From Psammoneis japonica (taxonomy: Eukaryota), in contig QPGO01000218.1 of assembly GCA_008632985.1 (NCBI GenBank), positions 62,001 through 117,546 of the forward strand: DNA of 55,546 nucleotides. The letters run 5' to 3'. Positions 22,764-55,546 of the stretch are shown one piece after another. Within the stretch, counting starts at the first letter, position 1; each line of letters starts with the position of its first letter. The notes beneath the pieces are model-generated. The model had not been told where the DNA came from. It did no database searches and saw nothing but the letters and a program-made list of their open reading frames with translations. The translations under genes were made by a program, and so were the position numbers.

Positions 22764-23864
22764 CGTGGTACCACCTCCAATTTAGCGGTTGGCTCTTGCC
22801 ATTTGCTATTGTATCATTTTGCAGAACCCTTGAGAATCCACGAAGGCAAAGAAAAGATCCAGCATAGTACCACCCACCCACCCCTCCTCGCACGACCTAC
22901 AGACTGCAGACACCCAGCCACCGGCCGCATCTTGAAGAATCTCACGAAGGCCTAAACTTGTGCTTTTCGCTAACTTGCCGTCATCAATCAAAGAGTCTAT
23001 CACAAGCGTTAGAAGTCGCCTAAAGCTCATCGAGTTGAATACAATGGCTATCCAGCAGTTCCTCACATCCAGCCACGGTTACATAATGAGTAGGATTTGT
23101 ACAGTAGAATTCGTTGAAACACACTGTACGACGTCAGCAAGAACATCTGTTACACTTGGCAGTAGATCGAGATATGAGGCGTCATAGTCGTACAAACGTC
23201 GTATAGTCGTAGTGGGTAGAACCGACTTCAACTACGAGATACATCATCGCACATTGAACTTCCACAAGATGTCGTTCCCGCTGACGTTCATAACCTCACC
23301 GGTGTGATGCCGCTGCTGTTAGCAGCACATCCCAATGTAGAACGCACGAGCGAACGATGACGTGTCAAGTAAATCGAGACGAGCGATCTACAACGTGTCG
23401 GGTCCGTCAATCATGCACGGAAGTTTGCTTCAACCCTCATTTTTCATGAGATCTGAACTTTTGCAAAGGAAGACTCTCCAGCCATCTCGACACAAAGCAT
23501 CGCCAGTTGCAGCTGAGACAACATCTGCGGGGACCAGAATGCACTGGTCGCAGAGTCTGCAGAGACCGGGAAACACCGGTTGCAGATTTGTCATTTCGCA
23601 TTCATTGTCATTCATTGCACTCTTGACACACTGAAGATTCATTGCACACACTCGTCCAGAAAACACTGGAAGTGGACCCTGCAGTGACTGGGAACACCAG
23701 TTGCAGGTCGGATCATCTGCCATCTGTTGATCATGTTGACTTTACTCAGATTGTTCTCATTGCAAGTCTCATGGGTCGTCGTGTTATCTGGTGTGCACCT
23801 GTTGCTGCGTTGTTGGCTCAACTTGTCTTTGCGCAGTGTGAGCCTGCCGTTGCAAGCTGTCTCA

Positions 23865-24632
23865 TGGATGACAGCAACACCAGGCACCGAGACAACACAA
23901 ACAGACGTTTTGAGAAGCTTCATTGCAGGAATGGAAACGAGCACGTCTCTTGGGTTTGTTTGGTGTGTGACAGATTGTCAAAACCGTCTCAGACTGCTCG
24001 ACTTTCTGTCAATGGATTGAATGAAGCCAGACACCTGTCAACTCCATCTGAATGGAACCAAGTGTCGGAAGACCTGCAAGATTGTCATCGCATCGATGAC
24101 GACCATGTTCCACGGGATTGCCGATGGATTTCCAACCTGTCACTTTCACCAAGAGCTCGACATGTTGTTCCGAACGACAACAGAAGGTCTGAAGGATTCA
24201 CTTGTTGCAGGCCTTGTAAAAGAAGTCTCTGCACTGCTTCTATGTCTTGTGGATGACAGCAACACCAGGCACCGAGACAATGTAAACAGACGTTTTGAGA
24301 AGCTTCATTGCAGGAATGGAAACGAGCACGTCCCTTGGGTTTGTCAGGTGTGTGACAGTTTGTTAAAACTGTCTCAGACCACTCGACTTTCCATCAATGG
24401 ATTGAATGAAGCCAGACACCTGTCAACTCCATCTGAATGGAACCAAGCATCGGAAGACCCACACGATTGTTGTCGCATCGATGACGACCACATTCCACGG
24501 GATTGCCGATGGATTTCCAACCTGCCACTTTCGCCAAGAGCTCGACACATTGTTCCGAACGACAACAGAAGGTCTGAAGGATTCACTTGTTGCAGGCCTT
24601 GCAAAAGAAGTCTCTGCACTGCTTCTGTGCCT
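23865..24632 (+). repeat. 385-bp tandem duplication within the Helitron (23865-24249 and 24250-24632)
   Basis: Both copies start tggatgacagcaacaccaggcaccgagac and align throughout, with about 15 differing sites. Confidence 0.97.
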
Positions 24633-27600
24633 CCGTGCGCAATGGCAAATGATTGCTGTTTTGGAACACCACCACCTGAATTATCGTGTCTTACCGAAGC
24701 AGAACTAGCTTCATCGACACCTGTGAAAACACATGGCTGCTGCTTCAGTTTTGTCGGTGGCAAACAGAAGAAACTGCAAGGTGGTCTTTCCCATTGCAAG
24801 ATAAACACAAAGAGCATCGCCCGCACCATTGTGCACTTTGACGTGTTGAACCTTCATCAAAATGTGGTTGTGTTGGCATCCGGCAAAATGACACCAGAGC
24901 AAAGGCGAATGGCCAGACAAAAGAACAAAATCAGGACTCACCATGTAATGAGAGCACTAGAATGGCTTGTCCATCACCACGAGAATTGGATGAATCAAGA
25001 CATCGATCTAGAGGAAGTGCGAAGTAATTTACAGAATCCAGTTTTAGTGGACAATGGCAGTTTAGACGAAAGCGAAAATGCAAACATTGAAACCACGGAG
25101 TCCCACAGTGTTCATTTCCCCGATGGCACCGTTTCTTCAACAACTGGTGGACAACGTAATTTAGACAGCTTCAAAGACTTGGTGCACGATGCAGCTGCAA
25201 GCGGTTTTGACATTGAATTCAAAGCTGATCTTTTGAAAGAATCAGTCAGTGACTTTAAGGACAACAACCTGGCAAATGCTTGCTTGCTGCAATTTCCTTG
25301 TGGGCGTGGCGGCATTGATGAAACAAGAATGAAAGAAGACGGGAGTCTCGCCGACTGTGCAAATCTAGCACATTGCGCAGATCACTTGGCCCGCATTTCT
25401 CAGCCCCATTTCCACAAGCAACTCTTTGTTCTGACCCTGTGCAATCTGACTGTGAAGCAACGAATGGTGCACAGTGCTGGATGGAAAGCAAGAGACAAAA
25501 ATCAAGCCAGACAATTCTCAAATGAACTGACACAAGACGACATCGACAGACCGGTGAACGCAGGAATTGCACATTGGGACATCGTTTCTTAAGTGCAGTG
25601 GATGTGGTGTCGGCATCTGTTCCACATGCAAATGAAGCAGCAAAAAAAATGAGAAGAAATGCTGAAACCTGCCAACACCACTTTGGACAACCTGGAGCAT
25701 TTTTAACGACAAGCCCCGATGATGCCAATTCCTTTTTAGTTCAAATTCACACGGACATGCTCATCGACAAAGGCAGAGATGTGACAGAAATGTCGGATGA
25801 AGAATTGGCCGAAAAGGCCAAGGCAAGAAACGAGCTTCGTGTGGAGCACCCGGGTGTCACGGCTTTTGCATTCGAAATGTCATTGGAAATCGTCACAGAA
25901 GAAGCAACAGGATGGGACTTAAAAAGGAATTCACCCAGAGAAGATTTTGAATTCTACGTGGGGAGACCCTCCGCTTTCATAGCTGCAATGGAAGAACAAG
26001 GTAGACTCTCGGCACACGGTCACATTCAGGCATGGTTTGAAGACACAAACACAGCAAGAGACAATCTGCATTCTGACAACAGAGATTTTAGGCGTGATGG
26101 TAAAAGAACACTGTCCAAACTGACCAGTCGGATCTGCACAACTGGGTTGATGTGCAGCGAGGATTGCACTCGACTGTCCATCATAGAGACTTTTGATCAT
26201 GATTGCACTGTTAATCTTGCCTGTCGTGCTGTGCCTAAAATGGTCAGCAATCAGCAGCTTCGATGCCCAAGGCACAAGCACGGTCAGAAATCAAAAAACG
26301 GCATGTTCGCGCATTGCCCTCATTGTGCTAAATGCTGGACAAACCCAGAGTTTGTGGCATGTTATTTGTTGAGTGACAACCGCGTCCCTGGTCTGACTGC
26401 TTGTCCAGACAACACAACAAAGAGACTTGAAGCCATGTGCACTCAGTGTCAACAATCCGATGAGAATGGGACAATCGAGCCATGCACTCCAGATGCTGCA
26501 TGCAGCCATCACATGCATGCCAACATCGCTTGTTTTTCTAAGCTGAAACAATTTCCAAAAAATGGAAAAAATTCCGAGAATGAAATGACCACTGGTGGAA
26601 GCGCGCGCAAGCGTAAATTGCACGAGATGCAAAATGCCGATTGCCGTTTCAATCTCCCCGCTGCACACAGCAAATGCAATGTAATCAGGAAAGCTCATGA
26701 TGCAAAAATTAAGTGGTTCTCTTGGGATGGCTCATTCCGTTGTAGATGCGTCAAAGAAATTGTCCCCAAGAGGAGAAAATGCGATGCTTTCCAGAATGTG
26801 TCGTGCCCTGCAATCAGCAGATCTAAGCTGACATGCAACACAAACATCGCAACTCTGATGCCAGGCCCCTCTGCACAGTGCACCATTGAGCACACACTCA
26901 AAGACACCCAAAAGGACGACACTGCCACTTGCCAAGAAGTGCTGAATGTCACTGACAAACTGGTGACAGAGCTTAGAAAGCATTCTTCTGATGCAGCGGA
27001 AACTGTAAGAAGATTGCTCTGGAGTGCTCATGCTCACAACAAAACCAACGTCATCAGACCGCCGCTTGCATCGTGCATTGCAAGAAACAGTGGGCGTTTT
27101 CTAACTTCTCATCAAACTGCATGGTGTCCACTCAAAGACATCACAAACATGCTAGAGAACGAAACAGTGTCTGCAATGGTTTCGCATTTCGGGGAGACTC
27201 CGTTCTGTCAATGTTTGGCCTTACATTGTTTGTGTCGACCCACACAAATGGAACATCTGAGTCCGTTTGTGTTCTGCAGAGCCCAAGTCTTCCACTTTCA
27301 AAGCCTGTTTAAAGGACCCAACCCAACAGATGACAGCTGAGGAAAAAGAGAAACACATGCTCGGACTGAAAGTGGCCCAACTGCCATTCACAATGAACAA
27401 TGCGACTGCAGGACACAAGCTTCAAGGAAGCGGTGTCGACAATGTGTTTGTGCACAGCTGGAGCTGTGCACAAAACTGGGCACATGTCATGCTCTCCAGG
27501 GTTGAGACCAGAAATGGTCTGCATCTTTGGCAACCGCTGAAGAGAGATTTAAGTCTGTGCAGACTGCCGGACGGGCATGACGCCCTGCTCCGGTTGATGG

Positions 27601-27662
27601 AAGGAAGAAGTGTCACATGCTTCACCAACGAACAGCATGATGACATTTTGCAGTCCAATTGA
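23865..27662 (+). mobile_element. Decayed Helitron-like RepHel element (DUF6570-like region, HUH Rep, C-terminal Pif1 helicase fragment)
   Basis: Motifs LSPRAR...MANDCCFGTPPPELSCLTEAE, LLQFPCGRGG, FGQPGAFLTTSPDD, EEQGRLSAHGHI (HUH), CRFNLP, degenerate motif 3 QCTIEHTLK, and Pif1 end NATAGHKLQG...AHVMLSRVETRNGL. Termini not identified. Confidence 0.85.
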
Positions 27663-28461
27663 CAAATGGAACATTTTGATGCTGCATGTGGGAATTGTTT
27701 CTACATTTTGGAAAATGTTCCAGGCTTCACACGCGGGCTTGCAGGCGTGCCCGGCAACAACCGACAGAAAACAAAGGGTCCAATCTAATGAATCGGTGTT
27801 GGCACATTGTTGCAATGATGGACACACTCAGCAACCAGTGATGCACAACGTTGGGACAGTTCTCTTGTCATCCACCATAGAACGATCACACCAGAATCAT
27901 CAAAAAGGGGAAACCCACGTCTCTTCTTGTGACACATCCATGCACGAACACAAAAATTAAATCGCCATTTTTTGACACAACATTGGAACATTGATGTAGA
28001 ATCACGTCGCACATTAATTGATTGCGAACCCATCATTCAAGCGTGTGAATTTTTTAAAAAATGATTGGTGGCAAGTAAAGATCAAAGCTCTAAAATTTGA
28101 TGCTCGCGCGCATGGCAATCCAAACCAGCCCGGGTTCCACACCTCCTCACTTCGTGTCCAGAGTTCCCACCACAAAGGAGGAACCAACATGAGCCAATCT
28201 AGAGAGTTGCGCATCCGAAGGCAGCATGTGTAATTCTGGAGCACATGAGTCTTCGATGGCATTTAGACAAATGGCAACTCTAGGCGCACACCGTGTTGCA
28301 TCTAAGAAACTGTGACAAATTTTTGAGCTTTAACAACAGCCACACGTCCCGCTCTCCGCTCATCAATTCCGCGGCAGACTGTCATTTCGCCATGCCCCAA
28401 GTCGGAAATGAATCTTCAAACGAAGTCCCGGAACTTTCAACTCACAATGTGTCACATGCAG

Positions 28462-28875
28462 TTGGGGCTCACAAGAGATTTCAAGAAAGATTTTCGCTTT
28501 TTTTGAAAACCAGCCCTTGTCTTTCTTGTGGTCAATCACTTCACTGCACTTGGTTGGTGGTTCTGCGGAAAGATTCATTCCTTCTAACTTGATCTTTTTT
28601 GAACCGATTTCGTCATCCAATCCACAATCGTCATCCATCACCTTGACATGAAGGACCATGTTGTCGAGGCCAGGAATGTCTTCAAAAGTGAACGTTTCAC
28701 CGCACTCAGGATTCAAGTCGTTCTCCTTCTTGCTGGAAGTCTTCTTGCCGTATCCCTTGTCAAACAACATGTTGTCCTGCTCGAGTTCAAACTTTACATG
28801 TGGATCAGACTTTCCAATTTTGTCGGCATCGCGAAGGTCTGTGATCTTGTCGAGAAGGACGGTTGGCACGCCCAT
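28462..28875 (-). pseudogene. C2-domain protein gene, mutated by TA->TG/CA changes (probable stop loss)
   Basis: MGVPTVLLDKITDLRDADKIGKSDPHVKF...NDLNPECGETFTF...VKVMDDD..DDEIG is a C2 fold with the canonical DPYV read as DPHV. The probable original stop TAA now reads CAA at 28462-28464. Confidence 0.75.
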
Positions 28876-29295
28876 GGTTGCAATGTCTTTTGAACTCGCA
28901 TGCCAAGCTCTTCCCGTTTCGGTTGCTCTTGCTTTGCTCTCGGTTTGTATTATGGTTATGGTCGCTGGTGTCTGGTGTCGCCAAAAATGAACGGGAATCA
29001 TCAATCTAAAAATCTCACAAAAGATCGCGATCCTTTTGGCGGGAAACGCAATTGATTGTGTATATAATTTATGTACAAGAATGAAGATTTCATTACGTGG
29101 ATACTCATAAGAATTAAAACATTCAGCACTGAATAGTAAATACAAACTGAAAGAAACTGCTTTTTCGCCTTTCTCGCTCATTTCTCCAAAAATGTTGGCG
29201 GAAAGGTGGTCGAATTTGTTTTTGCATTATTCTGGATTTTTGATCTGGCTTGTCCTTCCTGTCGCATTCCCATCTCTCACCATTATTTGCGCATC

Positions 29296-29955
29296 ATGCA
29301 TTGGCTACCATACAGTCGTACCTCTCCTTCAGTTTCTCTGATCTTGTTCCTTTTGTTGGAAGGTACAGTGACGTTCAGTGGTAAAAATAGCACTTTCGCA
29401 GCCGCCTATATCTGCAGTGAGAATGACGATTGTCATAATAATGGTACTTGCGTCGGAGATTCCAGCGAAAGGCATTGTGAATGTACAATAGGATACATTG
29501 GACCGCAATGTACGAGATTTTGCCCAAAACCGTGCTTGAATCTTGGGGTGTGTTACGAGGAAGCCCCTCATTCTGAAAGCTTCAAGTGTAGGTGTCGTGC
29601 ATTTTTTAGCGGGGATGAATGTGAAACCCCGTACGTGAATTGCGGCGACGGCAGTCGGTGCTACAATGGTGGCAAATGTAAGAAGGACGACGAAGAAAAT
29701 CGTCACAGTTGCAAGTGTCCGGCATCAGCTAGCGGAAAACGTTGTGAGGTTATGGAGCTAGTTTCTTCCAACAGTAGCAGGCTCGAACTTGGCGCTGTCC
29801 TCAGTATTGTGGTGGTTTGCGGTTTGGCTATCGCTGGAGCGTCTCTTTGGTTAGCAAGGCGGAAACGACGAATGAAATACAAACGCGAGGACATGTTTGA
29901 CGAGAGAGACAGCATAATAGATAGAAGTGCGGTGGATGCGATTGAGCTTACATGA
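29296..29955 (+). CDS. EGF-like repeat single-pass membrane protein
   Basis: Signal-like N-terminus, three EGF-type Cys repeats (CHNNGTC..CECTIGYIGPQC; CLNLGVC..CRCRAFFSGDEC; CYNGGKC..CKCPASASGKRC), a TM helix, then a basic stop-transfer sequence. Confidence 0.88.
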   Translation: MHWLPYSRTSPSVSLILFLLLEGTVTFSGKNSTFAAAYICSENDDCHNNGTCVGDSSERHCECTIGYIGPQCTRFCPKPCLNLGVCYEEAPHSESFKCRCRAFFSGDECETPYVNCGDGSRCYNGGKCKKDDEENRHSCKCPASASGKRCEVMELVSSNSSRLELGAVLSIVVVCGLAIAGASLWLARRKRRMKYKREDMFDERDSIIDRSAVDAIELT

Positions 29956-30030
29956 ACACCAAGCAGGAGTTCCTTGCATGACGCATACAAATATCATTCA
30001 CCACGCTCAAAAACGCCTGACCATTCTAGC

Positions 30031-31689: not shown

Positions 31690-33330
31690 AACGAGCAAGA
31701 ACATCATGACATGCATGCTGTCAACTCTTGGTGTCGGTGGCATGGTCGCGCTGCGACTCTCCCGGCACTGCAGCTGTGCTCACATTTGGGGAAATAGCAT
31801 GATTTTCTGAATTTCACTGTGGTGAAAATTGACAAGCACGCAACAAGCATGGTGGTGCACCAGGGTTTTGTTTCCTTGTCGCCCTCCCTCCTCGATGTTG
31901 CCTTCGTGCACACATCAAAGGCCAGGTGCTGCACCTTGGTGCAGAGCATGTTTTTGAGAACAGGACAAGCTGCCATCATGGGCAGATTGTCTGCACAAAC
32001 TGTTTTTGTTGCTTTGAACATGGGGGGCACTGCAAAAGGGGGCCCTTTTCTTTGACACTTTGTGGCTGTTTCTGAGAGTGCACATGCGGCGGGAAATGGC
32101 AACCACACACGCAACTTCTTGCACTGTCATTTCACTTGCAAAAATTCTCTTGCTGTTGTTGAGCAAAACAGTGCATTGTCTCTCTCAGTTTGGCCAGAGT
32201 TTGAGAAGAGGAGCTTGGTTCCCAGCTTCCAGGCTCTTTTGTCTGTGGCTTGAGTTGTCATCAAAGATTGACAAAAGTGCTGAACAGCAACCTCCACCTC
32301 ACTGCTGGGGTGCTGTTGGGGCACCACTTGCACAATGGCCCTGTGTGTGCAAAAGAGAACACCCCCAGAGAGAGAGACATGTTTGTTTTGTGGGCAGCCA
32401 AAGGAGAGGTTGTTGTGGCAGCAGGTTCACAAGAAAGCCAGCTGTCTTTGGGTTGATCAAGCTGCATTATTTTTGTCAGCAAGTGCCACACCATGATGTG
32501 TGTGCAGAAGGCTTGCAGCTCTGTGCACACAGCGTTGCAGAGAAAACTCTCAGCACTGCTGCACAAGTTTTTTGGCTGTGTTGTGCATGATGTGATTTTT
32601 GCAAATTCCCTCAACCTGAATGCTGATGCACATGTGCATGTAGTGCAGCACATTTTACACAACAACCAGCAGCCCACACAACTGTCAGCAAACACAGCAG
32701 GGGCAAAAGTTGTTGGCTCACCGAGAGGGGCAGGCCTCTGCTCCTGCCTCCTGCATCTGACTCAACCACCAGCACATGAGCCAATGGCACCGATGAAGTG
32801 AACAAACACTGATGCAGTAGAAAGGACACGCCAACACCTTCTTGTGGATAAGAGTGAGTGTAACAAAGCCAACGTGAACCCAATCGTTGCGCCTTGGTGC
32901 ATGAGATGCAGGCCTCTGCTCCTGCCTCCTGCGTCTGACTCAACCAGCACATGAGCCAATGGCACCGATGAAGTGAACAAACACTGATGCAGTAGAAAGG
33001 GCAAGCCAACACCTTCTTGTGGATAAGAGTGAGTGCAATGAAGCCAACGTGAACCCAATCGTTGCACCATGGTGCATGAGATGCAGGCCTCTGCTCCTCC
33101 TGCCTCCTGTGTCTCTGACTCAACCAGCACACGAGCCAATGGCACCGATGAAGTGAACAAACACTGATGCAGTAGAAAGGACAAGCCAACACCTTCTTGT
33201 GGATAAGAGTGAGTGTAATAAAGCCAACGTGAACCTAATCGTTGCGCCTTGGTGCATGAGATGCACCAACAAGGGTGGTGAGAATGACACGGTCACACAA
33301 GTGACGAGGGACAGACCACTGCTGGACCAC
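31690..33330. repeat. TpA-depleted degenerate repeat or TE remnant between TGS1 and the next gene
   Basis: Abrupt loss of TA, TG/CA-rich sequence, Cys/His-rich spurious ORFs. Contains a tandem array. Confidence 0.7.
32730..33265. repeat. Three tandem copies of a ~177-bp unit (starts 32730, 32908, 33083)
   Basis: The unit gcaggcctctgctcc...gagccaatggcaccgatgaagtgaacaaacactgatgcagtagaaagg...ggtgcatgagat occurs three times. Confidence 0.97.
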
Positions 33331-44043: not shown

Positions 44044-46070
44044 AGAAACACTCGTTTCGCTTAGGTTAGGTTTGCAACGAAAATTAGAATTGCATTCCTA
44101 GTTATCTGCATACAGGATGCCTTGATTGATTCTCTCTTCATTCTCTTTTATTTAGATTGGCTAATCAAGTCTGAGGAACTACCAAAAGCTGGGGTAGACA
44201 CCTGTTCCCCTTGTGAGATCGATGCTGTGGGTTTGGTTTTAAGAATCAAATGAGAGCATTTTTAACGCCAGTCGCACCAACAGCTTGACGATCGGTTTTG
44301 TGGACCACCATGACTCTTTTTGCCAACAGGAAAGATGCAAAAAGTTGGCTCTGAACTTGCATCGAGCAATGCAAGAAACTCTCCACTGGCACTGGGGATG
44401 CAGGCACTGATGATGCAAGAGCGGCCCAAGATGCCGCTTCAACTGGCGCTCTAGCTCCAAGCAGCTGGGATTCGACAAAAGGGCAGCCACAACTTTCTGG
44501 CAGTGTCACACTGCAACCAGCCCTCTCTCTCTCTCTAGAAGGACGACTCTGTCTTGAGCCATTTCATGTGTGTTGCAAAGAAAAGGGCACTGGCAGAACA
44601 TTGCACAGTGATGGCTGTGGCTCCACAATTGGCAAGTGACATGTTCACCTCAACCACTGCACTCCCTTTGCTTTGCCTGCATTGCAAAACCACACAGCAG
44701 TTTCAAAACCATGCCTGACATTGAAAACATGTTGGCATCAACTCTTTGAGGTGCATGTTCATTGCCATGCTCTGTCATGGCCAATCACCATCATCTCTCA
44801 TCTCCGCACCACTTTGCCAGAGGTGACATGATTGCGGCAAGAAAAAGGCAGACAAACCTCTGAAGAAAGATTTCATGTCCACCAAACAAAGCAAGTGTCA
44901 CTCTTTTTCTACATCATCCATCATCTGCATGAAGCATCTGCTAACTTGTCATGTGGTGGCCACCAGTGTGGCTGCAAAATGTCATGCTGTGAGAATGGAA
45001 AGACCCACGACCCACCAGTGGAAACTGTGCAGGGCTGCCCAAACTCTGTCATTGCATTGTGGCCATGTGTGAGTCCAAAATGTGGATGGGCAAATGCATC
45101 AAGCCAGTTGTTGCAGCCAAGCAGACAGCAGAGAAAACATTTCCACAACACAGAGAGAAACAATCAAGCAACAAAGCTTTTGATTGTCTCAGTTCTGCAC
45201 AGAACACAAGAAGCAAGTGTTTTTGTGAAAGATCTCAAAGTTTGCTGAGTGCAACAAACATGAACAAAAGAGATGGGCTTGCCAATCTGCTGGCCCCTCA
45301 ATGGGATGCTCTCCTCCTTTTTTGATTGTCAGTGCAGTGCATCATGCACATCTCTGCAATCAAGCAGGGAGCTGACAAATGCTGTTGAGACATGCACAAA
45401 ACATGCCCTCTGACTGAAAAAACAAAATTCTGTTCACAATGGTGGGGGGCTTGGTGCCACACAAACAGGCTGCTGCTTTTTGCAAGGTCAACAAGAGTGC
45501 AACATAAAATCATTGCCATGCTTGGTGCAAGGGACAAGAGCTCATGCTTCCCTTCCTTGTGGTGTGCTTGCAAGTGCTTTTTAAATGCACAACTTTGTCT
45601 GTTCAGTGCAAAGCTGTCAAACCGGCAAGTCAATGTTGCAAAAGGAGGGAGAGCCCCGTTGGTCAGTCACAACAATGGCTGTGGGTTGCCAGTGGTGTTG
45701 CTGCACACTGTGATTTGTGTGACAACAGGTGCCTGCCAATGCTGAGTGACAAATCATGCAAACCCAATGATTTGCTCCAAAGAGTGAGATGAAACTGAAA
45801 GGTGAGAGATTGCTGACAGTGAAACCTCACTCATGAAGAGTTGCAAAATGAGCTGCATCATTGGCCACTGCATTTTTTCTTCAACACATCCAGGTTCTTT
45901 ACATTTCCCACAACCTGGATGCTGTTCCAACAAAAGCATCAAGAAAATTGCATGCACTGCACAAAGCAGCAGAAATTTCACTTGCGTGCTGCAGAAGCAG
46001 TGCACACAGCTGCAAGAAGCCCCCCAGTTGTTGGAGTTTTGCAGCTTGCCAGCCAGTGTGCATTTAGTGT

Positions 46071-47808
46071 TGCCAATCCTGAGCTTGCTGTGTGGCTTGC
46101 AAACACATTTCCTCTGTGCCATCATCTGCTTTTGCCATGTCAACCAGGTGCAGAAGCCAAAAGGTCAAAGGGAGCGCAAGACCCACAACTCAACCCAAGT
46201 TGAGAACACAAATCCACCATGTTGTTCACAATCATCAGCACATCTTACACTGCAATGTTGACTGTCCATCCTGCAAAAACTGCCTTTCACCACAATGTCC
46301 CAACACACTCCTTTGCACAAGTCATCAATTGGTTGGCCTCAGGAGGCACATCAAAAAGCATGATGGGAGGACGACACTTGGAAACCATGCCATTTAAACT
46401 CTGCCAACAAATGACCACCATTGCTGTTGAGCAAAGCACAACCCCATTTCACATGCCCAACCTTGCAACATTTCCATGGTTTAATCTGCTTTTTCTCATT
46501 CTGCACAAAGCTTGCACTCTCAGGGTTTTTGTTGAAACCACAAGTGTCCAACACATGCAATGCCACCTTGGCAACATTGGAGCAATTGCCACCCCCAGTG
46601 CAACCTGCTGATGTGTGTCTTTCAAGACATGCCAACATTCCTTCTTGGTGCCTTCTGTTGGTGTTGCAACCAACAACTTGTCCTTTTCTTTGTCATGGGT
46701 GTTGTGAGCATCCTTGCCAAACCCATCTTCTTTGTTGGCAATTTCTTCTGGGACAATCATCATGCCACAGGATGCTTTTGCCATCTCAACAGTGCCAGCA
46801 AACCAACCACAATGACATTGAAGCACCTCTCCTTCATCTTGATGAATGTGTGCTGACTGCTTTCAAGCCTTGACTGCCTGAACATGTGAGCACATCTTCT
46901 TCTCATTTGCATCAAACAAAGTTGACTTGACAATTTCCAACAGCACCACCACACCCCCCCACTCTTTCACCACTCTTGCACACTCTGTTGCTGCTCCTTC
47001 AATCTTGTGACAAAGGCCTTTGCACAGTGTCCCACAATTGCGTTGAATGCCCTTGCCTTCTGTGTCTTGTAGAATGTGATCTGTTCACACATGGTGATCA
47101 CATTGCTTGCCCCAGATTGTCTTGTCCTTCTTCAATGTGGCATCTCCCAATGAACACTCTGGCTCTTTTGTGGCATGCTCTCCTGCCTCAGTGATGCCAG
47201 CACCTGCATCTCCAGCCCAAACATTCTTCCAACACACTTGCTGATCTTCTTGACGGTTTCTGTGCAACCATCTGCCTGTGAACCCAACTCAGCAATGGCA
47301 TCATGCACCCACTCCTTTGAATCTTTTGTGCTTCTGCATCTGGCGCAGTCCTTGAGATTGTTTCTTTGCCCTTGTCCACCAGCTGGCTTGTTTGTTGCCA
47401 CAATCTGCCACATGAGACATGCCTTTGGATTCTTGATGACTTCCCAGCCCCCATGCTCTTGTTCCTGATGACTTCTCAGCCTTTTCCTTTGACCCACACT
47501 GCTCCTTTGAGTGTCATGCTGTGACTTTTTAGCTTCTGTGTTGGAGTTTCACAGCTTGCCGACTGGCACATGTTTGGTCTTGCCAACCCCAAACTCACTG
47601 TGTGGCTTGCAAACACAACCCCAATGCTTGTCATCTGCTGTTGCCATGTCAGCCAGTGCAGAAGCTAAAAAGTGAGCAGAAGACCTGCAACTCAACCCCA
47701 AGTCATGAATGCAAATCTGCCACAAAGTCCACAGTCATCAGTGCATCATGCACTGCAACATTGTTTGTCTGTCTTGCAAAAACTGCCTCTCACCAAAATG
47801 TTCCAACA
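46071..47808. repeat. Diverged ~230-bp direct repeats (46071-46305 and 47581-47808)
   Basis: Shared blocks ctgtgtggcttgcaaacaca, ttgccatgtca, gtgcagaagc, caactcaaccc and tgcaaaaactgcct.tcacca.aatgt.ccaaca. Confidence 0.85.
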
Positions 47809-48979
47809 GCACCTCTTGAGCCACAGCAACCTCAATCTTTTCTTTCACCAACTGCACATTGCATGCAGATGAGTCAAGAGTGAGTTTTTGCTTGCAGTTT
47901 GTTCCCTTTCTCATTGCCACACCCGCATGGCTTCTTTGGCACTGCAGTGGTGATGACTTGTGTGGCTGCCACTGGTGGCTCCACTGCACTGTCTGGTGCT
48001 TCAGCATTGGTCACTGCCCCAAGAACTCCTCCTCTTTTCAGAGCAGCTCAGCTGTGTAGACTCCTGTCTACCTTTTCTCTAGTTCCTTTTTTCTGGAGAA
48101 GGGCTGGCTCTGGCCATCTCAGAGGACTCCCACCCCCATTTGGTTGGCACAACTCTCAAAGCAGCAGGGCAGTCTCAGCTCTGATCTTGCCTCTGATGAC
48201 ACTGCCATGGCAGCTGGATTGTCTGCAATGGCAAGCAGTCTGGCAAATGCCACTGCAGCACTTTTCACATGCATCCTTGTTGCTGACAATGGTGTTCAGC
48301 TCTCCCCTGTGGCCCATCTGAGTGCTGTGCTGCTCAAGCAAAGCTCATCAGTGGCAAGGCAATTCTGTTGGCTTGGGTGCACACCTCACCTTCCTCTGTT
48401 GTGGCAGCCACTTGGCCTGACTCTGTCATTGTGGCAGCCTCTGGTCCAAGTGTTGCAGCCACCAGTGCCACCCATGTTGTCTTGCCAAAGTTGTGGAGTG
48501 CAACATGCCCATGCTGAATGCTGGCTCTGGGACATGCTGTGCCTCCATCATCTGCCTCTCCTTGTTGTCTGCCAGCCATGTCATTCATGCATGACTCATG
48601 TCATTCTTTCAGTTCTCTAAAACTGTCAGACTCTTTCAGCCATGCCTTTGTTGTGTGTGCTTTGACAAGACCCAAGCCCTTTCTTGGCTGGCGGTTCACA
48701 GCAGCACCCCAGCAGCAGACATCAGCTGCCTTTTGGCTTTGTTTGCAGGCTCTGTCTTTGGCAGTCATGTGGTCCTTGCCCAGAGCACTGTGAGAGTGAC
48801 TTGCCAGTTCCATCCCAACCTTTTGGAGGCCCAGGCAGGTGCAAAGATCCAGTGCACTCTCTCTCAAATGAGGCCTGAGTGTGCCAACTGTTTGATGTGC
48901 AGCTTCATCAAATCAGTGATGCAGAGCACTGCAGCCATGCCAGCATCACATCACACCAATCAGACCCCACCTGCATTGC

Positions 48980-51850
48980 GCAAGTGAAAAAAATGGATTG
49001 GTGCTCTCATGACCAATCTTTTGTTGGCTTCACACCCAGAAAAAGCAATTGCTCTGCAGAATTCTGTGGCAATTTGGTGCTGAGCTTAGCCAAGACTTTT
49101 CTGTCTCCCCAACAGCAATCCCCAACCTCACATTCATGACTGCAGCATTGGTGCAACAAAGTGAATTGGAAGAAAGAACTCCTGTTGTTGTCTCTGTTGA
49201 AAGAGGCCCGCGACAATGCTCCAAGTGCTTTCAGCAACAAAAAATGTGGAGTCAACCTTTGCCACTTTCCAACAGGTTCAAGAAGTGCCAAGACTGTGAA
49301 ACTTCATTGTTGGAGACCAGTTTGTTGTTGGGCCAAGTGTGGGTGACTTTCAGAGACTGCCTCATGAAAAAAAGCTGAAACCATTTTGCTCTAAAAAATG
49401 ACTGCCTCAACCAAAAGCAAAGTTTGTTGAGGTGGAGTCTGGCTCACATGTGGTTGAGCACAGTGGCAACAAAGAGTCACTGCAAGGTGTGCTGAAAGAG
49501 GTGCCCCCCCCCCCAGCTGCAAAAAAGTGTGCATGGAAAAGATTCTATGTTTTGTGAGTTGCGTGGCATCTGTGCAGCACAAAGATCATCAATGGCAAGA
49601 TGTTGAGCAGTGGGAACATGACAACACACACAAACATCAGTCTTTCTTATCTCACTCTTTTCTTGTGGGGAGAAACAGGTGATGGCCTCATGTGAAAGGG
49701 GGGAAGGACCAAAAATTGCTGAGGGTGGGGTTGAAAACAGCTGCCAAAAATTGTTTCAGAAAGTGTTTTGAAAGGTGCTCATTCTTGCCATGTCTGCCGT
49801 GCATTGACAACAGTTTTGTGCCAAAGGGATGAAGTGCCGCTTCTGAATGGAAGCTCCACAACCAGTCAATTGGCAACAACTGCACATGTGCTTGCAGGCT
49901 CTGTCACTTGCAACCTTGTTTTGCTGGATCAAGATGAGTCCAAGTGCTGCAAGTGCTGGATTGTCAGCTTGGCCAACATTGCCATCAAAGCTTTCAGAGC
50001 ACATGGGGGGCTGGTTCTTCATCAGATGCAAGAATTGCACTTGGGATGATTGCCATGTGTTGCTGGAAGCAACAGCCAGAATTGTTTGGACTTGAAGAAG
50101 AACCTGCCATCTGCACACCAGTCAAGAAGCTGTTTGGGTTGAATGAACAACCCAGGCCTTGATGATGGCAAAAAAGCAGTGCTGCCATTGGCAATCTTGG
50201 CAAAAAACCAAAGAATGACTCAATGGAGGGCAAAGCTTTTTGAAGTGGAGCCCAACTCATGTGCAGTTGAGCACAACAATGACAAAGAGGAGCCACTGCA
50301 AGGATGACTTAAAGTGGTGCTCCCAGTTGCAAAAAAGGTGAGCAAAGAAAATTCCGCACAGCTCCAAGCTGAGAAGGAGTCTTGTCCAGAGCTGCTTGGC
50401 ATCTGCACAAAGAGTTTCCATTTGCACTGTGCAAGCAAAACAGCAAAGTGTGCAAGGCTGGACACAATTGTCTGCTGTCCACACCAGACTCTTTGGTGAG
50501 GTCTGCATGTGCACCCTTGCCCACTGTCTTTTGTGCGCGCACCATTGTTCTTGATCATTTTGTTGAACCCCGCCATGACCAACATGAGAAAGTGCCACTT
50601 GATCTTGTTTTGCACTCTTTCCCTGTTGTGTGCAATGGATGATGGCTGCAGAAGAGACAGACTAAATCACCAAAGGCAAGATTGAAGACACCACAAAATT
50701 GTCTCAAAAGCATTGGAAGGTGCCCATTCTTGCTGCAGGGCACAAAAAAAAGTTTCTGGGAGAGAAACACCACAAAGAAGGGAGAAGCCACTTTTCTGAC
50801 AATTTTGCAGTTGCTTGGTCTGGTGAAGCAAGATGCTTTGCATTGCAACATGCCGTTGACAGCACTGCCAAAGCAACCAGCAATGGGCACAATGTGTGTG
50901 CTGCAAATGTGCACCAACAGCCTCCACACACCCAAGAGCAGCATTTCAATGTGAAGGTGTGGCAACAGATCTGTCATTTTTGTCACAAGAGTCTCTTGAA
51001 CTTGCCCTTGGAATGCTCCAAAGAAGCAAAAACTGCTGGCTGTCCGGAGCAACTCATTGTCAAATTTGTCAAAAGCACGCTTTGCTCCAGTGTGCAACTT
51101 TGCACATGAAGGGTCGTGTGTGTGCAATGCAAAACTCCATTTTTTTGTCTTTTGGTGTGCAGGGGGGTTCATTGATGGTGGCACTGTGCCACAAAACACA
51201 AAAAGTTGCACATTTTAGAGAAAAAGTTGCAGCACTGTGTTGTCAAGCAACTCAACTGGCTGCATGGCATTTTTCATGCTTTGCAATTTCCCCTCTGAGA
51301 AAAGAACTTCAACTTTGATGATGTGACATGCCAGATGTGCACAAAAAGCTGCAAAATGTTTCAGAGATCTGAGCTGGAAAGCACCCCCAACTGACTTGAT
51401 GCTTGTTTGCACTTCTCATTTTTGCCAATCACCAGCTGCAAGAAGGTGTTGCTCAAAACAGTCTGCTGGGCATGGCAGCACATCATGGGCAGGGGCAGGG
51501 CATTCTTCCACCAGCTCAACGTGCCAGTGTTCAACTCCCCACAATGCGTTGCTGGTGACTCTGCAGAAGTTGAAAAGTCTGGCATCCTTTGAGAATTTTT
51601 CTCAATGCTTTGAGCTGTCAGCCCCAAGCACAGATGATGATGCACCATGGACAACTGCAAAAAATGTTTTTGTTGTTCTCCAGGGCACAACGTGGAGAAG
51701 AACACCAAGCATGAGCTGCTCTGGGGGAGAACTTAGATTTCCTGTTGCACATCAGATTGATGAAAAATCCATGGCGCAAACCTCAGCAGCCAATGACTTC
51801 TCATCGAGGTTGCAGTTGCCACCCTAAAACCACCACTTGTGCTGGTCTTC
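48980..51850 (-). mobile_element. Possible decayed Plavaka-like DNA transposase remnant
   Basis: Scattered minus-strand fragments (CGELNTG, FDKFDNELLRTASSFCFFGAF, VWRLLVHI, FGDLVCLFCSH, ESFDGNVGQ...LIQQNKVASD) recall the motif order of Plavaka-type transposases. Heavily degenerate, recognised by eye only. Confidence 0.35.
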
Positions 51851-52699
51851 AAAAGCTCCCACACAGCTTGGCTTGAGCATGTGCAGTGCACGGCAAAGGA
51901 GGGAGGCTGCAATCATGAGTTGCTTGCCAAAGAGGAGGATGCAATCAAACACTGTTTCTTCCAGCACTTTTTGTTTTTGGTCCTGTGAGCTTGAGTGGCT
52001 TGTGCATGTCAAGCACAAAAACAGGACAGATGGACAAGTGGCAGATTGGGCTGTTTTTTTTTTTGCTGCGTGCGCAACATTTGGTGAAGTCAACCTCACT
52101 TGGCAAAGTTGACAGTCATCTCTTGATGACATTTGACATCATTGATGACTCTGCTGTGATGATCCTCATTGCCTCTCAATGAATTCAGCAGGGCTGTCTG
52201 CAGCATGCATTGTCAAGCAGGAAGAAGCACACATGTTTTCACAACTGCACATTGTTGCGTGCATCAGTTGCACTGCAATCATGGGTGCATGCAAAGGACA
52301 GACAAATCACACAGATTTGATCAGATGTCAAAAACTGCAAATGTCATCAATCAATGATGTTGACACACAATTTGTCAGTGCTTGTTGCACTGCAATCAGA
52401 TTTTCTGAATGGCCTTTGGAGCAAATGGCACACTTTGGGCCGTTGAGAGCTCCTTCAGAGAAATCCAAAATTGCAGCACAAAAAATCCAATCTCATGATT
52501 TTCTGCTTTTTGTGATTTGCTCCACTTTCATTTGCACTCATTCTTCAAGCATGGTGCATTGTGTGCATGCACCACAGAAGGCAAGTGCACAAAATTGAAG
52601 CTTTCACCCAATGCGACTGATGCCAAGTCTTCTGTCAAGTGAGGGACAGTTGCTCTGGTGCCCCTGAAAATGATTTCCAAGCCAAAGTTGCTCAAATGA

Positions 52700-55546
52700 A
52701 GCCAGTGCCTCAAGATGGAGCAATCTTTTTATCCTGAAGACAAGAAGAGTTGCACCCACACAATCAATGTCAAGAACTGCAACCAGCGGGGAGTCTGCTC
52801 CAAGTGTGTCAAATTCTTGAAGACTTGCCATTGATGCTTGGTTGGCCAGAACATGCAAAAGCAAGCCAACAAGTTCCATCTGATGCAATCAATGAAAAAC
52901 AGCAAGTTTCCAAGTGCATCAAATTCTTGAAGACTTGCTGTCAACTTTTGGATGGACAAAATGTGCAGAAGCAAGCCAACAAGTTCCATCTGATGCACAT
53001 GTTGTTGCAGGAGATGCTCTCCAAGTTTTTGAGAACAAGGCTGCAAAAACACATTTGCTTCAAAGAGGCAAAGACGCCTTTGAAAAATGCCTGTGTTTCC
53101 TTTCCAACCATGTTTCCCCCAAAGAGTGCACTTCAAAATCAGAAACGGCATCTGTGGCATGATCTCAAGAAGCCATCAGAGACCATGAAGATCTGCAAAG
53201 CTGCCACTTGGACTCAGGAAGGAATGAACAAATGTCTCAAGTTCCACCCTCTTTTTGTGCCAAAGCAGAATCTAGAGGACAAAGATGAGCTTGAGAACAT
53301 TGTCTGCAACCTTGCACCTCATTGATGGTGCTGTCAGTCAAGCTCACAAGGTCTGGAAGTTCACATTTGACTGGACTAATGTCAAATCTGATCACAACAG
53401 CAAGGCTGGGTTAAAGTCAAAGATGGGCTCAATTGCAGCTCCAAAAATGGTTGCCAATCTGGTGCCGAACATTCTGATTCCAAGATGTGGTTCAATCATT
53501 GCACATGGGCCACTCATGACATGGATCAATGTTGGGTTGATGGAAGACTGGCAAACTGATGCTGAGAGAACTTTGAACAAAACCCAAAACAGCAATGTTC
53601 AAATGGCAATTGCAGGTGGTCTTGCATTGTGACACTGAAAATGCCTTTCCAAAGGAAGAGTTGAATGCCATGATCACTCAGCCAGTCAACAAAACCCTCA
53701 AGACAAGTTCCTTGACATGTGACAAAAAGCACAAGGGCAGACATTCTGACTGTGATGCACTTGGCAAAGAAAACTTCCAATTTGAGTGCAAATGATGCAC
53801 AGTTGTTTTGAAAAATGACCAGCTTCTGTTGAGGAGTCTTGCACATGACTGGATGTCAGCAAGCCCAGAAAAGGCCAAAGCAACTCACACAGGTCCAGCA
53901 GTCATTGCTCACATGAACCCCTCTTTGAGAAAAGAGAGGGGTGAGACTCTGCATGTTCTTCTTGATGGTGAAACATCATCAACTGCAATTTTGTGCAAAT
54001 TCACGTGGAAATTGAGAACCAAAGAATCTGCCACCAAGACTTGGAAAACCAAGGGTGGACTCTTTGCAACTGACAGCAAATGCAAAATGCAGTTCTTGTC
54101 ACCTGAATTTGACAAGCACAAGCCCATTGACAAGACAACACATGCTCATGGCATGCCCTCTTCTTCGTGTTGATGTGATGTGATCATGGGACACAACCTG
54201 ATGAGCAGTCTTGGAGTCACACTCAGCTCCACAAATGTGATTAGAAGATGCTGTTGTGCCAACAAAGAATGTTGGCACTTTCTTTGATGCTGATGTCTTC
54301 AAGCTGATTGCCAACCACATTGAAGAGTCTGGTGCTGTGAATGGTCTCAATGGCAAGACCAATGGCACCAGGATCCTTGATGCCAACTGTCATGCTGGCA
54401 ACCTCATTGATGTGGCTGACAGCCACAGAGTCACATCTCACCCCAGGAGAACAGAAGCAACTGAACTCTCTTTTAAAAAGATTTGAAAAGCTTTTTGACA
54501 GTTCCTCAGGTGTGTGGAAAGGAAAACCAGCAGATCTCATGTTGAAATTGGGCATGACTCCACATGATTTGGAGCCATTTCCCACACCACAAGCCTTGGA
54601 GGCAACTGCTTGAAAGGAAGCAGGCAGACTCTGTGAAGCAGGAGTCTCAAAGAAAAAAAATGGACCACTCTGAATGGGCAGCTCCAACCTTTGTTCAACC
54701 CAGGAAAAATGATCAAGTTCGGTTCCCACCCAACTTTTAAAGAGCTGAGAGGGAGGCTGATGTGCACTCCACACCCTTTGCCCAATGTTTGGGATGCACT
54801 GCAGAAACTTGAAGGTTTCATGCATGTGACCTCATTTGATTTGACCACGAGATGCTGTCACATCAAGCTGACATGGGGTGCATGTGTCATTTGTGCATGA
54901 TGGTGATGCTGCAGGGCAAATGTGAATGTTGCAGACTCCTTGTGAGAATTTCCCCCCATCATTTTTTGAGAACACATGGGCAAACTCATGGCAGGTTTAG
55001 AGTTTGTCAAAACTTGCTGTGTTGATGTCATGCTGTGCCTGACAAAAAGTGACTTCAAAGATCAACTCCAGAAACTTGAGGAGACATTCACATGGCTCAA
55101 ACAAGCCAGTTTGAAGGTCAGTTCCAAGAAGTCCTTTTCAGCTGAGCATGATGCAGACTGTCCAGGCTTTCATGTCACCCAAAATGGTGTTGCACCACCC
55201 CCCATGAAAGTGGGGGCAATTCAAGCAACTGCAACTCCCAAAACTCACAAGGAGCTGCAATGTTTTGTTTGTGTGGTCAATTGTTGTCAAGACATGTGGC
55301 CTCAACAATCTCATGCACTTGCTCTCCTCTTGCCAAACTCACCCAAACAAAGGTTGAGTGGCAATGGATGAGCACGGAACAAAAAGCTTTCAAAAATGTG
55401 AAGAGTTGTGTCAAAGGACGTGTCATCATCACACCCAAATTTTGACAAACTCTTTGAGCAGTGTGCCAAAGGAAAAAAATTCTAAACTGGGAGCAGTCAC
55501 ATCACAAAACAATCAACCTGTTGCTTTCCACCGCTGCAGGTTAAAT
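52700..55546 (+). mobile_element. Decayed Ty3/Gypsy LTR retrotransposon (gag-protease-RT-start of RNase H), running off the window end
   Basis: gag-like FPPKSALQNQKRHL..LKKP; protease LHVLLDGETSS...WKTKGGLFAT...PEF; RT SEWAAPTF, PHPLPNVWDALQKLEGFMHVTSFDLTTRCCHIKL and LMAGLEFVKTCCVDV; RNase H start LGAVTSQNNQPVAF. Confidence 0.88.
52801..52997 (+). repeat. 110-bp-period tandem duplication in the gag region
   Basis: caagtg..tcaaattcttgaagacttgc...aagcaagccaacaagttccatctgatgca occurs at 52801 and 52911. Confidence 0.9.

What the first reader, a model, noticed from the sequence alone, without database searches (positions are those of the whole stretch)
28462..28875. Host-type C2 gene partially hit by the TA mutagen, including stop-codon loss
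Next to the Helitron, a compact C2 gene shows DPHV (canonical DPYV), NPECGE, EISCEP, MGVPTV (CCA from a probable CTA) and a CAA where the domain should end (probable TAA). Some TA sites survive (GYG, gta). This suggests spreading into flanking genes, as with RIP leakage, or targeting of a duplicated or captured gene copy. It is a potential source of gene death or innovation.
Basis: partly seen in the sequence, partly recalled or inferred. Interest (0 to 1): 0.72.

Follow-up and report, generated by a model that had tools for sequence, protein, structure and literature searches.

The report
Host gene damaged by TA-erasing mutation
A small calcium-binding (C2) gene beside a jumping gene in a diatom-like genome has had its TA steps rewritten to CA or TG, which turned conserved tyrosines into histidine or cysteine and removed its stop codon, so a transposon-directed mutation process can also damage a neighbouring host gene.

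Summary
Observation confirmed. The minus-strand ORF from ATG 28875 is a single C2 domain (Pfam 1.9e-12). It has 77 homologues, mostly 132-139 aa.

The window reads His/Cys/Cys at all three Tyr-majority columns; 0 of 77 homologues have Cys or His there. CAA sits where 52 of 77 homologues end. None shares the 33-codon extension.

Of 10 residues unique to the window, 5 revert to the column's majority state by one TA->CA/TG reversal. The 616 nt around the gene hold 3 TA against 23.4 expected. Six distinct orthologue CDSs hold 5-29.

Contigs of a public run reproduce this allele exactly. Summed contig depth falls from about 1000-2700 to about 50-96 near 28200, so the gene lies outside the repeat. 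A second haplotype differs at 11 sites in 28238-28447; at 9 it has TA where the window has CA/TG.

Whether the other allele keeps an intact coding core is unresolved.

The scan had already noted the general TpA-erasing process on other pieces of this genome. One 2026 preprint describes it in Bigelowiella.

The parts
28462..28875 (-). C2-domain coding sequence as the family defines it: 137 codons plus CAA at the family's stop position
   Evidence: Pfam PF00168, E 1.9e-12, 47.8 bits against a cutoff of 22. 77 homologues, best 75% identity. Alignments.
28363..28461 (-). Read-through tail: 32 codons plus TGA, with no counterpart in any homologue
   Evidence: Homologue tails after column 135 are 0-6 residues in 77 of 77. 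tblastx matches of 27 related loci stop at or before 28468. The model gives pLDDT below 50 and no secondary structure for 138-169 (weak model, mean pLDDT 57.9).
28798..28800 (-). Codon 26 CAT (His), where 75 of 77 homologues have Tyr; reverts to TAT by one TA-type change
   Evidence: All six orthologue CDSs have TAC or TAT here.
28702..28704 (-). Codon 58 TGC (Cys), where 58 of 77 homologues have Tyr
28471..28473 (-). Codon 135 TGT (Cys), where 56 of 77 homologues have Tyr
28864..28866 (-). Codon 4 CCA (Pro), where 49 of 77 homologues have Leu; reverts to CTA
28462..28464 (-). CAA at the family's modal stop position; reverts to TAA
   Evidence: 52 of 77 homologues end here. In the codon alignment L002, L005 and L006 have TAA and L004 has TGA in this same column.
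28203..28947 (.). Single-copy flank of the repeat that shares its TA depletion (the overhang of the mutated tract). The left limit is uncertain within 28188-28219.
   Evidence: Summed contig depth falls from about 1000-2700 to about 50-96. 8 TA starts remain in 28209-28947 against 28 expected. Normal TA density resumes from 28948.
28238..28447 (.). Block where two haplotype contigs differ at 11 sites; at 9 the other haplotype has TA and the window has CA or TG
   Evidence: contig depths 34.8 and 29.6. Contexts and binomial test (P 3.9e-06 over all sites; 1.9e-03 over C/G sites only).
23387..28202 (+). Helitron-like element (DUF6570 and Helitron_like_N ORFs), TA-depleted. Both termini are inferred, not proven.
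   Evidence: PF14214, E 8.2e-09. PF20209, E 2.8e-14. TA 58 observed against 179 expected in 23500-28208. High summed depth up to about 28208. Sharp TA step at 23390.
28948..29300 (.). Intergenic promoter region between the C2 gene and the divergent EGF-like gene, where TA density is normal again
   Evidence: EGF domain PF00008, E 3.8e-09.

Best explanation
This is one allele of an ordinary single-copy host gene for a small soluble C2 (Ca2+-dependent lipid-binding type) protein. It has been swept into a locally hypermutated tract that also covers the adjacent Helitron-like element.

In that tract A:T pairs at TpA steps were changed to G:C on either strand (TA->CA or TA->TG). Because Tyr codons, TAA, CTA and T|A codon junctions all contain TA, the coding read-out is Tyr->His (1), Tyr->Cys (2 sure, 2 possible), Leu->Pro, stop->Gln, and silent changes. 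Asp, Gly and Lys codons, including the Ca2+-binding aspartates, are untouched.

The tract is about 5.56 kb (23390-28947). It starts at the left end of the element. It runs 745-760 nt past the element's right end, through the whole convergently oriented C2 gene, and stops sharply 72 nt upstream of the ATG.

Shown: the kind and direction of the changes, that the gene is unique DNA, and that the flanking changes are allele-specific.

Inferred: that the allele is crippled; that the chemistry is adenine deamination, as proposed for Bigelowiella; and that a domain (chromatin or transcript) rather than sequence repetition sets the limits.
For: 1. Direction and type.
- H/C/C sit at the three Tyr-majority columns, against 0 of 77 homologues with C or H there.
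- Of 10 window residues seen in no homologue, 5 revert to the column's majority state by a single TA-type reversal. 2 more revert to Tyr, a minority state.
- In codon alignments with 6 orthologue CDSs, the window keeps TA at 0-1 of their 5-28 aligned TA sites. Orthologue pairs keep 2-8. The window shows TG/CA at 32-80% of those sites, against 0-40% between orthologues.

2. Not codon bias. Orthologue CDSs hold 5-29 TA (rho 0.24-0.69); the window holds 3 (rho 0.10). Other ORFs of the window hold 3.4 and 5.0 TA per 100 nt, against 0.72 here.

3. A real allele. An X1 contig matches 28418-28842 with 0 differences, and another matches 28238-28447 with 0 differences.

4. Unique DNA outside the repeat. 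Summed contig depth is about 1000-2700 up to 28208 and about 50-96 afterwards, against 55.5 over the neighbouring genes.

5. Allele-specific. 12 of the 14 substitutions listed between 28222 and 28843 have TA in the reads where the window has CA or TG.

6. The same process acted in the element. TA is 58 against 179 expected. 8 of 20 difference clusters between its two tandem copies are TG-versus-CA doubles.

7. Invariant aspartates D18, D24 and D81 and the nearly invariant D83 and D87 are kept.
Against: - C84 and C110 revert to Tyr, which only 3 and 1 of 77 homologues have at those columns. These two may be ordinary substitutions.
- 3 of the 10 unique residues (K93, the inserted E105, P106) are not TA-type.
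- 2 of the 11 haplotype differences are not TA-type: 28340, and 28371, which is CG against CA.
- CA+TG enrichment over the gene is slight (15-19 per 100 nt, against 13-16 just outside the tract).
- No fading with distance, so a simple 'leak' model does not fit.
- The coding core 28418-28842 shows only one version in X1, at depth 50.6. The mutated core may therefore be on both haplotypes while its flanks are heterozygous. A single cis-spreading event does not explain that.
- At 28222 and 28225 the only X1 contig differs from the window.
- Both termini of the Helitron are inferred. A fold of 28090-28215 shows no significant hairpin (z 0.56).
Confidence: 0.8

Rival explanations
1. The C2 gene is a copy captured by the Helitron, a retrocopy, or another duplicate. 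It was then mutated because it is repeated DNA, not because of spreading.
For: - The fully depleted stretch (28332-28947, 616 nt) is about the size of a small transcript: CDS plus 72 nt upstream and 130 nt downstream.
- The gene has no intron.
- Helitrons are known to capture genes (recalled).
Against: - Summed contig depth over the gene equals that of neighbouring genes, and no second version was laid at 80% likeness.
- The repeat's high depth ends near 28208, 255 nt before the CAA codon.
- Orthologues L001-L009 are intronless too, so lacking an intron says nothing here.
- There is no other copy in the window.
Confidence: 0.07
2. The His and Cys residues and the long tail are a lineage-specific, selected variant of a working protein, for example new metal or disulfide sites.
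For: - The frame stays open for 170 codons.
- The Ca2+-binding aspartates are kept.
- X1 shows no other version of the core.
Against: - 0 of 77 homologues share any of the changes.
- Every one of the five sure changes is the one that a TA-specific mutator would make.
- Silent and non-coding sites around the gene changed in the same way, and allele-specifically.
- The tail has no homologue.
Confidence: 0.05
3. The direction is the reverse: the other haplotype suffered RIP-like CA/TG->TA changes and the window is ancestral.
For: The haplotype differences alone do not give a direction.
Against: - The outgroup does: 75, 58 and 56 of 77 homologues have Tyr where the window has CAT, TGC and TGT.
- The window's tract is TA-poor relative to its own background. 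Adding the 9 TA-type sites to the window's own 4 TA starts gives the other haplotype 13 TA in 210 nt, at or above background.
Confidence: 0.03
4. Assembly or base-calling artefact in the window.
For: - The window differs from the only X1 contig at 28222 and 28225, and by 4 letters there.
- It also differs at 29979 and 30121.
Against: Independent contigs of run X1 reproduce 28238-28447 and 28418-28842 letter for letter, including all altered codons from 12 to 138.
Confidence: 0.02

Closest known systems
TpA-specific hypermutation of integrated NCLDV and virophage DNA in Bigelowiella natans (Mettrop et al., bioRxiv 10.64898/2026.01.13.699255). I read the abstract, Results part 1 and the Discussion, and ran a term search.
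   Same: - Almost exclusively TpA->TpG/CpA, on both strands.
- Confined to sharply bounded genomic regions.
- Leaves TpA-depleted sequence.
- Their NCLDV region was extended by about 21 kb on the basis of the mutation rate, so region limits need not equal element limits.
   Different: - A different supergroup (a chlorarachniophyte against a diatom-like stramenopile).
- Their targets are single-copy viral integrations; here it is a multi-copy Helitron plus a host gene.
- The preprint's text holds no occurrence of 'diatom', 'flank' or 'heterozyg'. It reports no damaged host gene in the parts I read.
- Here no mutation rate is measured. There it was measured in mutation-accumulation lines.
Leakage of repeat-induced point mutation (RIP) into single-copy genes next to repeats. 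Examples are AvrLm6 of Leptosphaeria maculans and Neurospora flanks out to at least 930 bp (PMC2973834; passages seen).
   Same: - A repeat-directed point mutator alters unique DNA within about 1 kb of a mutated repeat and can inactivate a neighbouring gene.
- The overhang here (745-760 nt) is of the same order.
   Different: - The chemistry and direction are opposite: RIP is C:G->T:A at CpA and makes TA; here TA is destroyed.
- RIP makes stop codons; here one is removed.
- In L. maculans the degree of RIP was proportional to proximity to the repeat. Here there is no decline with distance and the edge is sharp.
- RIP is fungal and premeiotic.
Small single-C2-domain proteins of diatoms and other protists. 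JGI names 31 of the 77 homologues 'Ca2+-dependent lipid-binding protein'.
   Same: - Same length up to the family's stop position and same domain.
- 48-74% identity to the 28 aligned homologues; 75% to the best hit.
- Invariant aspartates kept.
   Different: - Three conserved Tyr replaced.
- Pro in the first strand.
- The stop codon is lost, adding 33 residues.

Membership tests
C2 domain (PF00168), small single-C2 protein family | Profile match above Pfam's gathering score | tested here: met
   47.8 bits against a cutoff of 22, E 1.9e-12, residues 10-103.
C2 domain (PF00168), small single-C2 protein family | Conserved acidic residues of the calcium-binding loops. Their role is recalled; their conservation was tested. 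| tested here: met
   D18, D24 and D81 are invariant and D83 and D87 nearly invariant in alignment A1. All are present in the window.
C2 domain (PF00168), small single-C2 protein family | Family-conserved Tyr at columns 26, 58 and 135, and an end two residues after column 135 | tested here: not met
   The window has H, C, C and reads through. 0 of 77 homologues have C or H there, and 52 of 77 end at that position. The failure is what the mutation process predicts, so the gene is a damaged member, not a non-member.
TpA->TpG/CpA hypermutation (Bigelowiella type) | Changes almost only A:T->G:C at TpA, on both strands | tested here: met
   12 of the 14 substitutions listed in 28222-28843. 5 of 10 unique residues revert to the majority state by such a change, with both CA-type (codons 4, 26, 138) and TG-type (58, 135) present.
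TpA->TpG/CpA hypermutation (Bigelowiella type) | TpA depletion together with CpA+TpG enrichment in a bounded region | tested here: met
   TA rho is 0.18 in 28501-29000 and 0.06-0.25 over the Helitron, against about 0.55 in the background. TG and CA rho reach 2.06 and 1.96 in the element. Enrichment over the C2 gene itself is slight.
TpA->TpG/CpA hypermutation (Bigelowiella type) | The target is foreign or selfish DNA | tested here: not met
   The C2 gene is a host-type, single-copy gene. Only its neighbour is a transposon.
TpA->TpG/CpA hypermutation (Bigelowiella type) | Measured, episodic rate about 1000-fold above background | not testable with these tools
   This needs mutation-accumulation lines or time-series resequencing.
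RIP and RIP leakage | C:G->T:A transitions, mostly at CpA, raising TpA | tested here: not met
   The direction is the opposite, by outgroup.
RIP and RIP leakage | Mutation of unique DNA within about 1 kb of a mutated repeat | tested here: met
   Overhang from 28188/28203 to 28947.
RIP and RIP leakage | Intensity falls with distance from the repeat | tested here: not met
   6 of 11 TA sites converted in 28209-28331 and 5 of 5 in 28332-28447. The CDS keeps 3 TA. The tract ends abruptly before 28948.
Helitron gene capture | The gene lies inside the element's termini and is multiplied with it | tested here: not met
   The high summed depth ends near 28208, and the gene's depth equals that of its neighbours. 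The tool warns that depth is not a copy number.

The most novel reading that the evidence does not exclude
A functional domain, not repeat homology or simple diffusion, sets the limits of the hypermutated tract.

The tract begins at the Helitron's 5' end with no overhang. It runs out of the 3' end in the element's direction of transcription. It covers the whole convergently transcribed C2 unit at full intensity and stops in the promoter gap.

That pattern would fit targeting by read-through or antisense RNA, or by a silent-chromatin domain. It would mean that an RNA- or chromatin-guided adenine mutator in diatoms can knock out host genes. The mix seen here suggests repeated rounds at one locus: an apparently shared mutated core with haplotype-specific flanks.
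Probability: 0.2. Interest if true: 0.85.

Novelty: new variant of a known kind. Interest (0 to 1): 0.63.

Why it matters
This locus shows what the TA-erasing process costs the host. A conserved single-copy gene loses three conserved tyrosines and its stop codon because it sits beside a transposon.

It also offers a natural before-and-after pair. The two haplotypes differ almost only at TA-type sites, so the targeting rule (repeat, transcript or chromatin domain), the timing and the strand choice of the mutator can all be tested at one small locus.

The process itself is known to me from print only in one 2026 preprint on an unrelated alga. Two full-text searches for it in diatoms listed no such paper.

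A mutator that removes stop codons and makes Cys and His from Tyr is also an unusual source of protein change. This is the reverse of RIP, which creates stops.

Tried and rejected
- Whole-genome search for paralogues: no genome is held for this window.
- Earlier notes of the scan near this place, by sequence, by words and by 'haplotype': nothing.
- Self-BLAST of 23000-29600 against the window: only an internal tandem duplication, and no second Helitron or C2 copy.
- RNA evidence: no RNA holder listed, so expression of either allele could not be examined.
- Run X3: nothing laid.
- Run X2:
  - It gave two contigs only, one over 28580-28898 and one from 29303 on. The parts without cover are no evidence.
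  - The 28580-28898 contig (depth 3.3) has 11 differences (8 G>A, 2 C>T, 1 A>G). Only the position of 28843 was shown. At that depth the differences may be errors, so I do not build on it.
  - The 8:2 ratio fits the 7 TG and 3 CA sites of 28843-28898 better than the 19 and 23 of 28580-28842. This proves nothing.
- Synteny: tblastx of 27 metagenome loci against the window matched only the C2 gene, apart from one short chance-level hit at 52254-52304. Whether the locus is the gene's native place could not be tested this way.
- Helitron 3' hairpin: a fold of 28090-28215 is no better than shuffles (z 0.56). CTAG at 28199-28202 and A|TCTAC at 23386-23391 resemble Helitron termini only by recalled motifs.
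- Structure model: mean pLDDT 57.9. This is too weak for a fold search or for statements on burial, so I used it only for the unstructured tail.
- Strand runs of CA-type against TG-type conversions along 28222-28865: a hand count over 19 sites gave 8 runs against about 9.8 expected. No clustering.

Full report
**What is there**

On the minus strand an ORF starts at ATG 28875 and reads MGVPTVLLDK...EISCEPQ. It then continues for 32 more codons to TGA at 28365-28363.

Pfam finds one C2 domain: PF00168, E 1.9e-12, 47.8 bits against a cutoff of 22.

A search of the large protein collection returned 77 homologues with E up to 0.001 among 105 candidates.
- Most are 132-139 aa long.
- The best has 75% identity.
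- 31 are named 'Ca2+-dependent lipid-binding protein' by JGI.
- The only hit that names an organism is from the diatom Cylindrotheca fusiformis, at 52% identity.
- No hit is identical to the window, so the organism's own proteins are not in that collection.

The neighbours are as follows.
- On the 3' side is a Helitron-like element on the + strand: DUF6570 at E 2.8e-14 and Helitron_like_N at E 8.2e-09.
- On the 5' side is a divergently oriented EGF-domain gene, followed by a cap guanine-N2 methyltransferase-like ORF.

**Check of the observation**

I aligned all 77 homologues with the window.

| Column | Window | Homologues (of 77) |
|---|---|---|
| 26 | His (CAT) | Tyr in 75 |
| 58 | Cys (TGC) | Tyr in 58, Phe in 12, Trp in 7 |
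| 135 | Cys (TGT) | Tyr in 56, Phe in 14, Trp in 4 |
| 4 | Pro (CCA) | Leu in 49, Val in 15, Pro in 0 |

- No homologue has Cys or His at any of the three Tyr-majority columns (0 of 77).
- After column 135, 52 of 77 homologues have exactly two residues and none has more than six. The window has two residues, then CAA, then 32 further codons.
- In a codon alignment with six distinct orthologue CDSs from metagenome contigs, L002, L005 and L006 have TAA and L004 has TGA in the very column of the window's CAA.

**Are the changes the work of a TA-specific process?**

Ten window residues occur in none of the 77 homologues.
- Five revert to the majority state of their column by one reversal of TA->CA or TA->TG: P4 from CTA, H26 from TAT, C58 from TAC, C135 from TAT, and Q138 from TAA.
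- Two more (C84, C110) revert to Tyr, which only 3 and 1 homologues have there.
- Three (K93, the inserted E105, P106) are not of this type.

Only three TA remain in the 414-nt CDS: GTA27, TAC42 and TTA97.

| Sequence | TA count | rho |
|---|---|---|
| Window CDS | 3 | 0.10 |
| Orthologue CDSs, about 400 nt | 5-29 | 0.24-0.69 |

- The two other host ORFs next door hold 3.4 and 5.0 TA per 100 nt, against 0.72 here.
- At sites where an orthologue has TA, the window keeps TA at 0-1 site. Orthologue pairs keep 2-8.
- At those same sites the window has TG or CA at 32-80%. Orthologue pairs show 0-40%.
- The invariant aspartates are untouched. That is expected of a process that follows codon content and not protein function.

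**The tract**

TA starts in the window were mapped.
- Density is normal up to 23389.
- From 23390 to 28208 there are 58 TA against 179 expected.
- Between 28332 and 28947 there are 3 against 23.4 expected (Poisson 1.6e-07).
- Density is normal again from 28948: 32 against 21 expected in 28948-29500.
- CpG is not depleted over the gene (rho 0.87-0.90). It is moderately depleted in the element (0.53-0.77).

**Reads**

One public sample holds the stretch (runs X1-X3). Only Logan contigs were available.

- Summed contig depth is about 1000-2700 from 27300 to 28208. It is about 50-96 from 28209 on, and 55.5 over the neighbouring genes. I read this as repeat against unique DNA, with the repeat ending between 28187 and 28219. 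The tool warns that depth is not a copy number.
- Contigs identical to the window cover 28238-28447 (depth 34.8) and 28418-28842 (depth 50.6). The altered codons 12-138 are therefore real.
- A second contig (depth 29.6) covers 28238-28447 with 11 differences. At 9 of them it has TA where the window has CA or TG. One is CG against CA and one is of another kind. The chance of 9 or more of 11 is 3.9e-06 if any site could change, and 1.9e-03 if only C/G sites could.
- Site 28843 is heterozygous in the same way, at depths 29.7 of 71.4. It is a silent ATT|ACA against ATC|ACA.
- At 28222 and 28225 the only X1 contig (depth 56) has TA where the window has CA, and it has four extra letters.
- In all, 12 of the 14 listed substitutions between 28222 and 28843 are of the TA type.
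- Counting the window's own TA sites, conversion is 6 of 11 in 28209-28331 and 5 of 5 in 28332-28447.
- TA loss in the whole flank (8 left, 28 expected) is as deep as in the element (58 left, 179 expected).

There is thus no decline with distance, and the tract has a sharp far edge 72 nt upstream of the ATG.

On the left side of the element there is no overhang in the window's TA profile. The left terminus itself is only inferred.

**What stays open**

- In X1 the coding core 28418-28842 appears as one contig, bounded exactly by the heterozygous sites 28417 and 28843.
- Its depth (50.6) is nearer to collapsed neighbours (55.5-56) than to single-haplotype contigs (27-42).
- The mutated core therefore looks shared by both haplotypes, while both of its flanks are heterozygous.
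- Contigs can drop variants, so a less mutated core on the other haplotype is not excluded.
- A low-depth X2 contig over 28580-28898 has 11 differences, 10 of them towards A or T. I could see only one position (28843) and do not build on it.
- Possible readings are an older round shared by both haplotypes plus a newer haplotype-specific round, or a short gene-conversion patch.
- The window's own difference from X1 at 28222 and 28225 is unexplained.

**Mechanism**

Shown: A:T->G:C at TpA on both strands, in a bounded tract that includes unique host DNA.

Inferred:
- The allele is a loss-of-function or hypomorphic allele. It has three conserved aromatic residues replaced, a proline in the first strand, and a 33-residue tail. 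The tail is modelled without structure (low-confidence model).
- The chemistry may be adenine deamination, as the Bigelowiella preprint proposes. No enzyme is known.
- The shape of the tract points to a domain-type targeting rule. It has no overhang at the element's 5' end and a full-strength overhang past the 3' end. It ends in the promoter gap of a convergent gene. Read-through or antisense RNA, or silent chromatin, could set such a rule. This is a hypothesis only.

**Comparison and novelty**

The scan had already noted the TpA-erasing process on other pieces of this genome; 8 notes were shown. One of them led me to Mettrop et al. (bioRxiv 2026).
- The preprint documents TpA-only A:T->G:C hypermutation of integrated viral DNA in Bigelowiella natans.
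- I read its abstract, Results part 1 and Discussion.
- Its text has no occurrence of 'diatom', 'flank' or 'heterozyg'.

Two full-text searches for the process in diatoms listed no such paper among the 15 and 12 rows shown. These were listings and abstract starts only.

RIP leakage into single-copy genes is the closest analogue in logic. Passages of PMC2973834 report at least 930 bp in Neurospora and an intensity proportional to proximity in L. maculans. Its chemistry and direction are opposite, and the distance decay is absent here.

I file this as a new variant of a known kind: collateral, partly allele-specific TpA hypermutation of a host gene.

A side result supports local activity of the process. 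The element's two tandem copies (23858-24247 and 24243-24632, 92% identical) differ at 20 clusters.
- 8 are TG-versus-CA doubles. That is the mark of one ancestral TA converted independently in each copy.
- 3 are TA versus CA/TG singles.

Noticed in passing
window 23858-24632: A tandem duplication of about 385 nt inside the Helitron-like element (92% identity). Of 20 difference clusters, 8 are TG-versus-CA doubles and 3 are TA versus CA/TG singles. An ancestral TA was therefore converted independently in each copy after the duplication.
   Followed up: partly
window 28189-28237: The only contig of run X1 here (depth 56) has T at 28222 and 28225, giving TA where the window has CA, and it has four extra letters after 28225. 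The window's version was not seen in the reads. This could be new conversions in the assembled culture, a third haplotype or an assembly error.
   Followed up: partly
window 44500-55546: An 11-kb block with TA rho 0.00-0.12 and CG rho 0.00-0.21, and with TG and CA near 2. Both self-complementary pyrimidine-purine steps are almost gone here, far more completely than in the Helitron.
   Followed up: no
window 31700-33300: Another island poor in TA and CG. It starts directly upstream of the cap guanine-N2 methyltransferase-like ORF (PF09445, 30031-31779, minus strand). It may be a second case of a host gene bordering a mutated tract.
   Followed up: no
window 23386-23391 and 28199-28202: A|TCTAC sits exactly where TA depletion starts. 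CTAG sits inside the interval where summed contig depth drops. Both resemble Helitron termini by a recalled motif, but no significant 3' hairpin was found.
   Followed up: partly
window 28597-28599 (codon 93): The family's conserved Cys (67 of 77 homologues) is Lys (AAA) in the window. This change is not of the TA type.
   Followed up: no
L015-L017; L024:319-4296: In some metagenome relatives the same C2 domain is the N-terminal part of long proteins of 378-672 aa. One contig carries four C2 copies in a row.
   Followed up: no
window 28936-29056: A second contig (depth 27.2) differs from the window by five small insertions or deletions between 28964 and 29013. The haplotypes therefore also differ by ordinary indels in the promoter gap. 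From 29027 on only one version was laid, at depth 55.5.
   Followed up: no
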